Positions 24,001-27,000 of a stretch of 49,166 nucleotides of DNA are shown piece after piece (within the stretch, counting starts at the first letter, position 1; each line of letters opens with the position of its first letter). Position numbers: made by a program. Source of the stretch: a virus (lineage: Duplodnaviria > Heunggongvirae > Uroviricota > Caudoviricetes); the IMG/VR virus record IMGVR_UViG_2923307698_000008; one strand, 5' to 3'.

Positions 24001-27000
24001 GCAAAAATACAGAACCCGGTGTCAATAAGTTTTCCTTTTGACACCTCATTTTTTAACTGCTGTGTAACAGCCTGTTCTGCTGTCAGTTCCCATCTGGCAA
24101 TAAGCAATTTTTCCTCATAGTCGTCTTCGCTATCGCCATCAGGCACATCGTTTTTACTTCTCCTCAGATACGATATGTAAAAATCGCGCCAGGCATCCAG
24201 ATCCAGTTGCCCTCGCTTATTCGATATCGGGGCACCCGGCAATTTCTGCAATCTGCGAAGCTGGCGATCGGTCAGACTTAAATGCCTGGCAACTTCAGTC
24301 TGCGTAGCCACTCCTCACCTCGCAAAAACTCTCACCTCACAATCACAACAAAACCGGTCATGTCCGGTTTACATGTCTGTTTTTTGTTCATGTCCGGTTC
24401 ACAGAAGACCTGTTTTTATATTTTTCATATAGTTAACTTGAAGAGAAACCGGACATGGATCCCGGAAAATTTTCATAAATAGCGAAAACCCGCGAGGTCG
24501 CCGCCCCGTAACCTGTCGGATCGCCGGAAAGGACCCGCAAAATGATAATAATTATCATCTACATGTCACAACGTGCATCTACGCCATCAAACCACGTCAA
24601 ATAATCAATTATGACGCAGGTATCGTATTAATTGATCTGCATCAACTTAACGTAAAAACAACTTCAGACAATACAAATCAGCGACACTGAATACGGGGCA
24701 ACCTCATGTCAACGAAGAACAGAACCCGCAGAACAACAACCCGCAACATCCGCTTTCCTAACCAAATGATTGAACAAATTAACATCGCTCTTGATCTGAA
24801 AGGTTCAGGTAATTTTTCAGCGTGGGTTATTGAAGCCTGCAGAAGAAGATTAATTAATGAAAAATATTCTCAATTTGTACCCAACAAAGACAAACACGAC
24901 CAGAGCACCTGTTCAGACAGGTTTACTTAAACGACTTATATATGACACAAAAAGCGACCACTAAAGTCGCTTTTTCTTATGGTAACAGGCAATAACTCTC
25001 TCAGATATTTTTTAGCATTTTTTTGACCGCGCGTTTCCGGACGTATTCTGTTCTCCTGTCCCTTTATATCGTCGGAATACCCGCCGCTCTTCAAATCCCA
25101 TTCCCAACTCAGAATGTAGTCTGTTGACCGCTTGTTTTATTTCGGTCAGGTTCACCGGTGAAACCGGAGTCCGGCGCGCCTTACGCAAACACTCTGCTCG
25201 TTTCTGTGCCGCCACTTTTCTTTTCTGGTCATCACTTAGCTGTACCATCACTTTTGCCCATCGTTCAGCTGCTCTCCGGTACAGTCCTTTTTTCTCTAGA
25301 CATTCTGCCACGTGATCATGTAGCATAAGTGACCTCCGATTATCTACAGACTGCCATCCTGAATTTACCTTCCCTTAATGAAATAACAATAAAAAACAAA
25401 CCACGCAAAAACAATAAAACAACACACAAAAAAAACTAAATAATAAACAAAAATAATCACCTTATTTTATTATTTTTTGAGGGAGCAATTACTGAACAAA
25501 AAACGCTGACTATATACTCAAAACCAAACAACTATTCTGCCAATCAGGTATCATGGCAACACACGGAATTACCATGTTTTTGCCTTCTCTGCCCATACAA
25601 TACGGGCATATACTTCATTCTCTATTGTAATATTTCTATCCATGTGCCCCACTCCATTTACCTGTAATAATATTCAAAATATTTATCACAGAAATCGTTT
25701 TTGGCCATGAACTGAGCACACTATAAAGTCCGGAACTGACTCTTTGTTAAATTACCTTAACGTTACCAGTAACACTTTCATAACAAAACATCACGGTATA
25801 CACTGGGTACGGATATATTCCTGTGCTCCTTCCAGTTGCTTCTGCATTGCCATCAGCCGTTCTCTGAGGATGAAATAATCCCGTTCAGCGGTGTCTGCCA
25901 GTCGGGGGCCGGTTGCATTATCCACGCCGGAGGTGCCGGTGGCTTCACGCACGGTACCGGAGCAGGTGGCGTTGATCCGCAGGCGCTTACGACCAGCGGC
26001 AACATCAGCACGCAGAGTTTCATTTTCAGCTCTCGCATCGGCTAATTCCCTCGAGTATCTGGCATCAAGTGCAGCGACATCACGCTGGCGTATCTGCATA
26101 TCAGTAATTGTCGCGTTCGCCAGCTCCAGCTCACTGGCTTTTTTATCGCGCTGCTCTTTGTAGATGATGGCGTGATCACGGTAATGATTCAGCCCCAGAC
26201 TAAGCGCACCACAGGCCACCAGCAGGACAATGATAACCACGCACAGAACACGGTTCATATCACCACCAACGGATTGCCCAGACCAGAACAGCAATGGCCA
26301 CAATACGAATGGCAAAAGCTGCCGCTCTTGTTAAATCCAGACTGGCTGGCGTCTCCACTTCAATGCCTTTCATAATGGACAACCTCAGAAAGAATCTTTT
26401 ATACTTCCTCACAGGGAAAGTACCTCCCTACCCATAATTTCTCCCTTGCCTTACTCAAGGTCAGAAAACACAAAACCCCGCTTGCTGCCAACAAACGGGG
26501 TTTTTACTTTTATTCACTTAGGTTTTACCAGTTTTCAGGATTTCGTGTTATCCACCCGCGTTGGCCAACGTCATTTTTCAGGAAAATATTCTGCTATCTG
26601 TCGATGTCCCAGCACGCCAGCGCGCTCTCCTGGTCACGCCGTGAGACCTGACCGTAGCAATTATTTGAACGGATACGGCAGTCTCTGCCACCGTCCTTAA
26701 TCCACCAGCGAATCGCCTCACAGGCACCTTTTCGATCGCCTGCATTAATTCGTTTATAAAACGTCGACGGGAAGCACTTACCGGGGCCAATGTTATACGG
26801 ACAGAATGACGCGATCCCCGCTTTCTGGGGTTCGGTCAGCGGCACCCGGATGTTTTTCTCCACCCATGCCAGCGCCTTGTCACGTTCGATGGCATTAACC
26901 CGGTCGCATTTTTCCTTTGACAGCTTCATGCCAGGAATAACAGGCTTACCATCCACCAGAATGGCACCACGGCAGATGGTCCAGATCCCCGCACCATCAC

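What the first reader, a model, noticed from the sequence alone, without database searches (positions are those of the whole stretch)
24312..24506. Lambda-type cosN combined with non-lambda terminase-binding repeats
The 12-nt cohesive-end sequence and its flanks match lambda, but the putative small-subunit binding sites are three copies of CATGTCCGGTT (two direct, one inverted, around an AT-rich IHF-like spacer), and the small subunit has a divergent N-terminal DNA-binding domain. This implies a packaging specificity different from lambda.
Basis: partly seen in the sequence, partly recalled or inferred. Interest (0 to 1): 0.45.

Follow-up and report, generated by a model that had tools for sequence, protein, structure and literature searches.

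The report
Non-lambda cosB beside a lambda cosN
This E. coli O157:H7 prophage has lambda's DNA-cutting site next to a different set of docking sites for its own divergent small terminase subunit, which points to an uncharacterised but very common packaging specificity among lambda-like phages.

Summary
On the minus (phage) strand the window carries lambda's cohesive-end sequence GGGCGGCGACCT at 24506..24495. It is >90% identical to lambda from about 114 bp left of cosN to bp 45 right of it, and homology stops there.

CATGTCCGGTT occurs exactly three times in 49 kb, all within 99 bp:
- R3 lies at bp 50-60, where lambda and phage 21 have R3.
- An IHF-like element lies at bp 72-84.
- R2 is inverted, at bp 108-118.
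- R1 lies at bp 138-148.

The small terminase subunit has a Nu1-like C-terminal part. Its N-terminal 58 residues do not resemble lambda Nu1, phage 21 gp1 or N15 gp1 by BLAST. They model as the same winged helix-turn-helix fold.

In relatives from Klebsiella, Salmonella, Citrobacter and Enterobacter, R3 and inverted R2 keep the same positions. Pseudomonas-type relatives keep only R3. Arg at helix residue 20 always goes with G before TCCGG; any other residue goes with T.

I conclude that this is a working-type cosB of a further specificity class. It is present in 21% of complete E. coli genomes and is unannotated there. Binding and discrimination against lambda are inferred, not shown. It is a new member of a known kind, of moderate interest.

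The parts
24530..24536 (-). cosQ-type heptamer GGGTCCT, 30 bp left of the cohesive end. It lies inside a 114-bp stretch that aligns to lambda's right end with 10 mismatches.
   Evidence: the same heptamer is present in nearly all relatives
24495..24506 (-). cosN cohesive-end sequence GGGCGGCGACCT (bp 1-12), identical to lambda and phage 21.
24465..24477 (-). I2-type element TATGAAAATTTTC (bp 30-42), identical to lambda's; a 2-mismatch match to the IHF consensus.
24447..24457 (-). R3: CATGTCCGGTT at bp 50-60, the proposed critical binding site for the small subunit. Lambda and phage 21 R3 occupy bp 50-65.
   Evidence: invariant in 40 distinct upstream variants; TCCGGT lies at bp 53-55 in all enteric relatives; lambda R3 position from PMC9026076
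24423..24435 (+). I1-type IHF site candidate TTTCATATAGTTA (bp 72-84), with 2 mismatches to WATCAANNNNTTR. It lies in the A+T-rich R3-R2 spacer.
   Evidence: relatives have 0-1-mismatch IHF sites at bp 71-73; the lambda and phage 21 I1 matches are at bp 74 (annotation)
24389..24399 (+). R2: CATGTCCGGTT inverted relative to R3 (bp 108-118).
   Evidence: only two rare single-base variants among 40 upstream variants
24372..24382 (+). Degenerate copy CATGTCTGTTT (2 mismatches). Not conserved in close relatives and probably not a site.
24359..24369 (+). R1: third exact copy (bp 138-148), in the same orientation as R2; proposed accessory site.
   Evidence: variable (AACCGG to AGCCGG in 12 of 39 variants, and deleted in L117); absent in the Salmonella and Citrobacter relatives
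24352..24362 (-). Overlapping 1-mismatch copy CATGACCGGTT in R3 orientation. With R1 it forms the near-palindrome AAACCGGACATGACCGGTTT.
24138..24311 (-). Codons 1-58 of the small subunit: predicted winged helix-turn-helix DNA-binding domain (strand, H4-10, recognition helix H15-22 DRQLRRLQ, short wing 23-36, H38-54).
   Evidence: hhalign register against lambda Nu1
23802..24311 (-). Small terminase subunit gene (169 aa, GTG start). The C-terminal part is Nu1-like (Pfam PF07471 over residues 49-150).
21902..23830 (-). Large terminase subunit gene (642 aa), 66% identical to lambda gpA, with gpA ATPase and nuclease domains.

Best explanation
The region is a complete lambda-architecture cos site. 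Its cutting and termination part (cosQ, cosN, I2) is lambda's own. Its recognition part (cosB) belongs to a different small-subunit class.

Proposed mechanism, by analogy with lambda:
1. The N-terminal winged helix-turn-helix domains of a small-subunit dimer bind R3 (bp 50-60) and the inverted R2 (bp 108-118).
2. A host IHF-induced bend at the I1-type site between them brings the two sites together.
3. The subunit bound at R3 positions the large subunit, which is 66% identical to gpA, to nick cosN and make the 12-base cohesive ends.
4. R1 adds affinity but is dispensable.

The recognition sequence is CATGTCCGGTT, with an invariant TCCGGTT core. Arg20 of the recognition helix is proposed to read the G just 5' of that core.

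Shown here: the sequences, their positions, their conservation, the covariation and the fold prediction. Inferred: binding, bending, the accessory role of R1 and discrimination against lambda and phage 21 DNA.
For: - Position. R3 lies at bp 50-60, and lambda R3 is at bp 50-65 (PMC9026076). Phage 21's annotated R3, I1 and R2 lie at bp 50-65, 72-86 and 107-122; here they lie at 50-60, 72-84 and 108-118.
- Homology break. Identity to lambda ends at bp 45, just before R3, and resumes only at protein level in the small subunit's C-terminal part.
- Conservation among close relatives. In 40 distinct upstream sequences with a 99%-identical small subunit, R3 has 0 variable columns of 11, R2 has 2 and R1 has 2. 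The spacers have 26-58% variable columns (hypergeometric P = 0.018).
- Conservation across genera. In the Klebsiella, Salmonella, Citrobacter, Enterobacter and other E. coli loci (small subunits 60-88% identical over full length), TCCGGT is at bp 53-55 and inverted ACCGGA at bp 108-110. Most have a 0-1-mismatch IHF consensus at bp 71-73.
- Distant relatives. Pseudomonas-type small subunits (42-45% identical) keep a single CGCTTCCGGTTCC at bp 54-55, directly before the gene.
- Covariation. Arg at residue 20 goes with G before TCCGG in 6 distinct helix/site combinations. One of these is L130, whose domain groups with the Pseudomonas type. Asp, Asn, Ser, Thr or Lys goes with T in 19 combinations. 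There are no exceptions at R3. At the aligned residue lambda has Asn with T at bp 56, and phage 21 has Arg with G at bp 56.
- Fold. The model of residues 1-58 (pLDDT 81.7) has the strand-helix-helix-wing-helix order. The lambda small-subunit DNA-binding domain 7lw0_A is the second-best of 350,542 PDB chains (TM 0.62-0.64, rmsd 2.8 A), and 6hn7_B gives TM 0.69.
- Live phages. PhiR12_1 to PhiR12_5 carry this module (small subunit 99.4% identical, cos region 91.8%) with all three sites intact.
Against: - There is no binding, cleavage or packaging experiment for this class. No virion end has been determined in the records found.
- All Foldseek E-values are above 0.3, and a profile search of PDB sequences finds nothing. 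Fold equivalence therefore rests on TM-scores and ranking for a 58-residue domain.
- The window's own I1 candidate has 2 mismatches to the IHF consensus, which is no better than many A+T-rich stretches.
- The within-type conservation test is only modestly significant, and the sequences are related to one another.
- The R motif, when aligned by sequence to the lambda and phage 21 R sequences, sits 3 bp closer to cosN. Lambda tolerates only 1-2 bp changes in that distance (PMC4669245), so the geometry cannot be exactly lambda's.
- In lambda and phage 21 the residues shown genetically to set specificity are 20 and 24, not 21 (PMC4669245). The 'Arg reads G' rule is my inference.
Confidence: 0.8

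Rival explanations
1. The repeats are phage 21-type R sequences, and the prophage simply has phage 21 packaging specificity.
For: The motif shares CATGTC with the phage 21 R sequences (R1 TTTCATGTCGGGCCTT; R2 reverse complement TTTCATGTCGGACCTT), and the R3-I1-R2 layout is the same.
Against: Phage 21 has CATGTCGG followed by nCCT, whereas the window has CATGTCCGGTT: one extra C and a different 3' half. The N-terminal 58 residues give no BLASTP alignment to phage 21 gp1 at E <= 100. tblastn aligns phage 21 gene 1 only over residues 64-166. The recognition helix is DRQLRRLQK here and PRTIERWQS in phage 21.
Confidence: 0.05
2. The cosB is functionally lambda-compatible. The sites differ in sequence, but lambda-type and this terminase cross-package, so there is no separate specificity, as with the one-way compatibility of N15 and lambda.
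For: The T-subclass motif CCATTTCCGGTTC differs from a lambda-type R3 (mEp237, CCATTTCCGTTCT) by essentially one inserted G. N15 terminase packages lambda DNA despite a divergent helix (PMC4669245). cosQ, cosN and I2 are lambda's.
Against: The window's subclass has G where lambda has T at bp 56. A G:C pair at that position in phage 21 is reported to clash with lambda Glu24 (PMC4669245). The motif is displaced 3 bp toward cosN. The tight coupling of helix residue 20 to the motif base indicates that selection maintains cognate pairs.
Confidence: 0.2
3. The repeats are not packaging sites. They are operators for another regulator, a hairpin or terminator element on the late transcript, or recombination scars.
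For: The R1 near-palindrome followed by a T-rich tail is flagged as terminator-like on the phage strand, and CCGGGATCCATGTCCGG at R3 is also flagged. Promoter-like matches nearby are at chance level.
Against: A terminator would not explain several observations. R3 and R2 keep fixed distances from the cohesive end across genera while the spacers diverge. The sites follow the small subunit's N-terminal domain type rather than the neighbouring lysis or accessory genes, which differ between loci. One base covaries with a residue of that subunit's helix. The R1 palindrome is absent from many relatives.
Confidence: 0.03

Closest known systems
Bacteriophage lambda cos (cosQ-cosN-I2-R3-I1-R2-R1) with gpNu1/gpA terminase
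   Same: - The 12-base cohesive end is identical, and DNA is >90% identical from about bp -114 to +45.
- The order R3, IHF-type site, inverted R2, third site, then the small subunit gene is the same, and R3 starts at bp 50.
- The small subunit's C-terminal part is 46% identical and the large subunit 66% identical.
- The predicted DNA-binding domain has the same fold.
   Different: - The R sequence is CATGTCCGGTT, not CGTTTCC(G/T)TTCT.
- The recognition helix is DRQLRRLQK, not IRTIQNWQE.
- The wing is about 11 residues shorter.
- The N-terminal domain is undetectable by BLAST or by a PDB sequence-profile search.
- The R3-I1-R2 unit is displaced about 2-3 bp toward cosN.
- The exact R1 copy is inverted relative to R3, whereas lambda's R1 is direct.
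Phage 21 cos and gp1 (the classical second packaging specificity)
   Same: cosN is identical. The annotated R3, I1 and R2 positions match within 1-2 bp. The R sequence begins CATGTC in both. Both have Arg at the helix position aligned with residue 20 and G at the corresponding base.
   Different: The 3' half of the R sequence differs (CGGTT versus GGnCCT). The N-terminal domains are not alignable by BLAST. The phage 21 R1 is direct.
Phage N15 and Monarch-type cos (third documented specificity; simple versus complex cosB)
   Same: One small-subunit class occurs with both a simple cosB (a single R3 just before the gene, in the Pseudomonas-type relatives) and a complex cosB (R3-I1-R2, with or without R1, in the enteric relatives). 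This mirrors the N15 versus Monarch contrast described in PMC4669245.
   Different: The N15 R3 is GAGGTTGTTGTT at bp 48-59 (PMC4669245). N15 gene 1 aligns only over residues 59-164 of this protein.
PICI cos sites read by Rpp-TerS heterodimers (EcCICFT073)
   Same: A lambda-type cosQ and cosN are combined with a non-lambda cosB, so that the same cutting machinery is redirected to different DNA (PMC6739421, PMC9026076).
   Different: Here the new specificity is built into the phage's own small subunit. No Rpp-type adaptor is involved, and the element is a full prophage with its own terminase. I did not test whether any PICI carries this R motif.

Membership tests
lambda-like cos site | 12-base 5' cohesive-end sequence closely matching GGGCGGCGACCT | tested here: met
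   Exact single match at 24495-24506, minus strand.
lambda-like cos site | cosQ heptamer and conserved sequence to the left of cosN | tested here: met
   GGGTCCT at 24536..24530; the 114 bp left of cosN align to lambda's right end with 10 mismatches.
lambda-like cos site | [quoted passage not shown] | tested here: met
   The repeat copy lies at bp 50-60, and the position is kept (TCCGGT at bp 53-55) in all enteric relatives and in most Pseudomonas-type relatives.
lambda-like cos site | IHF site (I1) between R3 and R2 | tested here: inconclusive
   The window has a 2-mismatch match at bp 72-84. Relatives have 0-1-mismatch matches at bp 71-73. The lambda and phage 21 matches are at bp 74 with 2 and 1 mismatches.
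lambda-like cos site | R2 inverted relative to R3, about 55-65 bp away | tested here: met
   An exact inverted copy lies at bp 108-118, and the spacing is kept in all enteric relatives.
lambda-like cos site | R1 in the same orientation as R3 | tested here: not met
   The exact third copy has R2's orientation. Only an overlapping 1-mismatch copy has R3's orientation. R1 is missing or differently oriented in relatives.
lambda-like cos site | Terminase nicks here to give the virion ends, and the small subunit binds the R sites | not testable with these tools
   The phage records with this module (PhiR12 series) are not deposited starting at cos. No biochemical data were found.
lambda packaging specificity | R sequences CGTTTCC(G/T)TTCT and recognition helix RTIQNWQE | tested here: not met
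   R is CATGTCCGGTT and the helix is RQLRRLQK.
phage 21 packaging specificity | R sequences C(A/G)TGTCGGnnCT and recognition helix RTIERWQS | tested here: not met
   Only the CATGTC half is shared, and there is no BLASTP alignment of the N-terminal domain.
N15 packaging specificity | R3 GAGGTTGTTGTT at bp 48-59 and the N15 gp1 recognition helix | tested here: not met
   The sequence at bp 48-59 is TCCATGTCCGGT. N15 gene 1 aligns only over residues 59-164. The N15 R3 sequence is taken from PMC4669245.
Phage_Nu1 (Pfam PF07471) small terminase subunit | Match above the Pfam gathering score | tested here: met
   67.9 bits against a cut-off of 30, but only residues 49-150 match profile positions 62-163. 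The DNA-binding part of the profile is not matched. hhalign against lambda Nu1 gives 99.7% probability over residues 4-166.
gpNu1-type winged helix-turn-helix DNA-binding domain (MerR-like) | Strand, helix 1, recognition helix 2, wing, helix 3 fold superposable on the lambda small-subunit domain | tested here: inconclusive
   The AF2 model has pLDDT 81.7 with the right element order. 7lw0_A (lambda domain) ranks second with TM 0.62/0.64, and 6hn7_B gives TMq 0.69. MerR-family and excisionase domains also match. All E-values are above 0.3.

The most novel reading that the evidence does not exclude
This would be a fourth natural packaging specificity of the lambda-like cos phages, after lambda, phage 21 and N15, and by far the most common one in pathogenic E. 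coli. Its recognition may follow a simple, transferable rule: Arg at one helix position reads G, and Asn or Asp reads T. The same rule may hold in lambda and phage 21. Several prophages in one O157:H7 genome can share this cosB, so one functional terminase could package defective neighbours that carry virulence genes.
Probability: 0.55. Interest if true: 0.55.

Novelty: new member of a known kind. Interest (0 to 1): 0.42.

Why it matters
Work on how lambda-like terminases choose their DNA rests on three documented specificities (lambda, phage 21 and N15). PMC4669245 notes that only modest diversity is known because few examples have been studied.

This class would add a deeply divergent DNA-binding domain that still uses lambda's cosN and a gpA-like nuclease. 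It would also add a natural series of helix and site variants, including simple and complex cosB forms. That makes rules of recognition and the evolution of cosB architecture directly testable.

There is a practical side. The module is in about one in five complete E. coli genomes, with up to four copies per genome, including effector-carrying O157:H7 prophages. It therefore bears on which prophages and satellites can be packaged by which helper. It also shows that cos sites of this type are currently unannotated.

Tried and rejected
- Sequence search of the PDB with a profile of the family found no significant hit. Neither 1J9I nor 6HN7 was recovered, so fold evidence had to come from a model.
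- Foldseek with the full-length model (pTM 0.33) gave only weak MerR-type hits. I repeated it with the isolated domain.
- The genome-contig scan has one genome per species and returned few enteric relatives. They were obtained through the look-up of encoding contigs and IMG/VR instead.
- Full-text search for the motif found only unrelated primer or sequence hits. Searches for cosB with O157 found only the PICI and Feiss papers, none of which describes this cosB.
- No paper describing the PhiR12 phages was found.
- Sippy et al. 2015 (PMC5006951) and Feiss et al. 2010 (PMC2815929) are not held. Statements about residues 20 and 24 and bp 56 and 59 are therefore taken from PMC4669245.
- My first attempt to number relatives from an ATGAAAA anchor was wrong by 48 bp, because the window has two copies. 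I redid it from the cosQ heptamer.
- The apparent exception to the covariation (Arg with T) is the cosQ-side TCCTTTCCGGTGAT, not R3.
- The degenerate copy at 24372-24382 was considered as a fourth site and rejected because it is not conserved.
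Full report
**What is there**

The phage genes of this window run on the minus strand. The small terminase subunit gene is at 24311..23802. The large subunit gene is at 23830..21902. The large subunit is 66% identical to lambda gpA.

Immediately upstream lies GGGCGGCGACCT at 24506..24495, the only copy in the window. I number from its first base as bp 1.

CATGTCCGGTT occurs exactly three times in 49,166 bases, all within 99 bp:
- bp 50-60, forward in phage orientation (R3).
- bp 108-118, inverted (R2).
- bp 138-148, inverted (R1).

A 1-mismatch forward copy overlaps R1 and gives the near-palindrome AAACCGGACATGACCGGTTT. A 2-mismatch copy lies between R2 and R1.

**Origin**

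The window is 100% identical to lambdoid prophages of E. coli O157:H7. The matching prophage in strain PV15-279 carries sodC, a PerC-family gene and a neighbouring EspF-repeat effector gene.

The cosB segment alone (151 bp) is found in 1,153 of 5,426 complete E. coli genomes, with up to 4 copies per genome. No feature is annotated on it.

**Relation to lambda and phage 21**

DNA identity to lambda runs from at least 114 bp left of cosN to bp 45. This stretch covers cosQ, cosN and the I2-type element. Identity then stops.

At the same distance from cosN, lambda has R3 (bp 50-65, PMC9026076), and phage 21 has its annotated R3 (bp 50-65), I1 (72-86) and R2 (107-122). Here the corresponding elements are at 50-60, 72-84 and 108-118.

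The motif resembles both known R sequences:
- lambda: CGTTTCCGTTCT
- phage 21: CATGTCGGnCCT
- this window: CATGTCCGGTT

Aligned by sequence, it is phage 21-like (G) at the position equivalent to bp 56 and lambda-like (C) at the position equivalent to bp 59. PMC4669245 reports these two base pairs as critical for lambda/21 discrimination. The motif also sits 3 bp nearer to cosN, and the I1-type element and the R3/R2 dyad centre are shifted about 2 bp the same way.

**The small subunit**

Pfam Phage_Nu1 matches only residues 49-150. tblastn against 50,697 phage records finds the full-length protein only in five PhiR12 phages (99.4% identity). Lambda, phi80, N15, phage 21 and Gifsy-1 align only from about residue 59-73 onward. 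BLASTP of residues 1-58 against phage 21 gp1 gives nothing.

hhalign nevertheless aligns residues 4-166 to lambda Nu1 residues 5-179 in one register (99.7% probability). This places the window's R16-K23 opposite lambda's recognition helix, residues 17-24.

An AlphaFold2 model of residues 1-58 (pLDDT 81.7) has a strand, helix 4-10, helix 15-22, a short wing and helix 38-54. In a Foldseek search of 350,542 PDB chains, the lambda small-subunit DNA-binding domain 7lw0_A ranks second (TM 0.62/0.64). Its relatives 7lwr and 7lxs, and 6hn7_B (TMq 0.69), also appear, along with MerR-family and excisionase winged-helix domains. All E-values exceed 0.3.

The domain is thus best read as a deeply diverged gpNu1-type winged helix-turn-helix with a shorter wing.

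Among 77 IMG/VR loci with a 99%-identical small subunit there are 40 distinct upstream sequences:
- R3 is invariant.
- R2 has two rare single-base variants.
- R1 has a common AACCGG-to-AGCCGG variant and, in one locus, a 30-bp deletion that fuses R2 and R1.
- The spacers vary at 26-58% of columns (hypergeometric P = 0.018).

More telling are the diverged homologues (full-length proteins 60-88% identical) from Klebsiella, Salmonella, Citrobacter, Enterobacter and other E. coli. All have TCCGGT at bp 53-55 and inverted ACCGGA at bp 108-110. Most have a perfect or 1-mismatch IHF consensus at bp 71-73. Flanking and spacer sequences differ between them.

R1 is present in some relatives, absent in others, and in one (L125) has the opposite orientation.

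Pseudomonas-type relatives (42-45% identical) have a single CGCTTCCGGTTCC at bp 54-55 and the start codon at about bp 77. This is a simple cosB of the kind described for N15, whereas Monarch has the complex form (PMC4669245).

**Covariation**

I compared all distinct combinations of predicted helix sequence and R3 sequence.
- Arg at residue 20 is always paired with G immediately 5' of TCCGG (6 combinations).
- Asp, Asn, Ser, Thr or Lys is always paired with T (19 combinations).

One Arg case (L130) has an N-terminal domain 55-58% identical to the Pseudomonas type and only 40-47% identical to the enteric Arg group. The association therefore arose at least twice.

At the aligned position lambda has Asn with T at bp 56, and phage 21 has Arg with G at bp 56. 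This fits an Arg-guanine contact but remains an inference. The residues genetically implicated in lambda and phage 21 are 20 and 24 (PMC4669245).

**Mechanism proposed**

The mechanism follows lambda (PMC9026076, PMC4669245):
1. A small-subunit dimer docks its two winged-helix domains on R3 and the inverted R2.
2. An IHF bend at I1 brings the two sites together.
3. The R3-bound subunit anchors the gpA-like large subunit for the staggered nicks at cosN.
4. R1 is an accessory site.

Because cosQ, cosN and I2 are lambda's, only the recognition step is changed. Sequence positions, conservation, covariation and the fold model are shown here. Binding, bending and discrimination are inferred.

**Rivals**

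- Phage 21 specificity is rejected on both the site and the protein.
- Functional compatibility with lambda cannot be excluded. The T-subclass motif differs from a lambda-type R3 (mEp237, CCATTTCCGTTCT) by about one inserted G, and N15 terminase packages lambda DNA (PMC4669245).
- A non-packaging role has only weak support, from terminator-like flags at the R1 palindrome and at R3. It does not explain the fixed distances from cosN or the covariation.

**Novelty**

PMC4669245 states that only the lambda, phage 21 and N15 specificities have been documented. Full-text searches found no description of this motif or of an O157-type cosB. The genomes annotate nothing here.

It is a new member of a known kind of system, namely the lambda-architecture cos site with a Nu1-type small subunit. 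It is notable for its abundance and for the natural series of variants. It is not a new mechanism.

Noticed in passing
L040 and L030 (bp -5 to +25 relative to the window's numbering); compare window 24480-24510: Two E. coli relatives keep this small-subunit class and the R3/R2 sites. Where cosN should be they carry a different sequence (..GGGGTCGTAGGACGCGCAAAAACGCGC..). The recognition module (cosB plus the small subunit's N-terminus) and the cutting module therefore seem to reassort independently.
   Followed up: partly
window 24525-24536 (minus strand), and the same place in relatives: The cosQ-side sequence GGGTCCTTTCCGG lies in the area annotated 'R4' in the phage 21 record. It contains TTTCCGG, the core of the T-subclass R motif of this small-subunit family. 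This may be coincidence or a weak extra site.
   Followed up: no
window 24351-24370: R1 plus its overlapping 1-mismatch copy form a 20-bp near-palindrome followed by a T-rich tail, flagged as terminator-like on the phage strand.
   Followed up: partly
L117 (IMG/VR), aligned to window 24370-24399: One close relative has a 30-bp deletion that fuses R2 and R1 into a single copy. This looks like recombination between the direct repeats, so it is a natural two-site cosB.
   Followed up: no
L009-L015, L177-L185 (Pseudomonas-type loci), 20-25 bp before the small subunit start codon: Many have the tandem form TTCCGGTTCCGG, a duplicated half-site, at the single R3 position. No inverted partner lies upstream of the gene. 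I did not search for a remote partner inside the gene, of the kind N15 has (rR2).
   Followed up: no
window 15533-15649 (+): An Rfam ALIL pseudoknot (120 bits), the frameshift element of IS3-family transposases. An insertion sequence therefore sits within the morphogenesis half of the prophage.
   Followed up: no
window 30542-31058 (-): The STnc100 sRNA lies next to three tRNA genes (Arg-tct, Arg-tcg and a CAT-anticodon tRNA that the RefSeq record calls tRNA-Ile), downstream of the Q antiterminator region.
   Followed up: no
window 35783-35957 (-) and 44717-44768 (+): A sok antitoxin RNA (with hokD annotated in the matching genome) and DicF RNA are present in the early region of the prophage.
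   Followed up: no
window 24706-24930 (+) and 25012-25326 (-): A DUF3950 (YlcI/YnfO-family) ORF and a PerC-family transcriptional activator ORF occupy the gap between the lysis genes and cos. The cargo at this position differs in every relative examined.
   Followed up: partly
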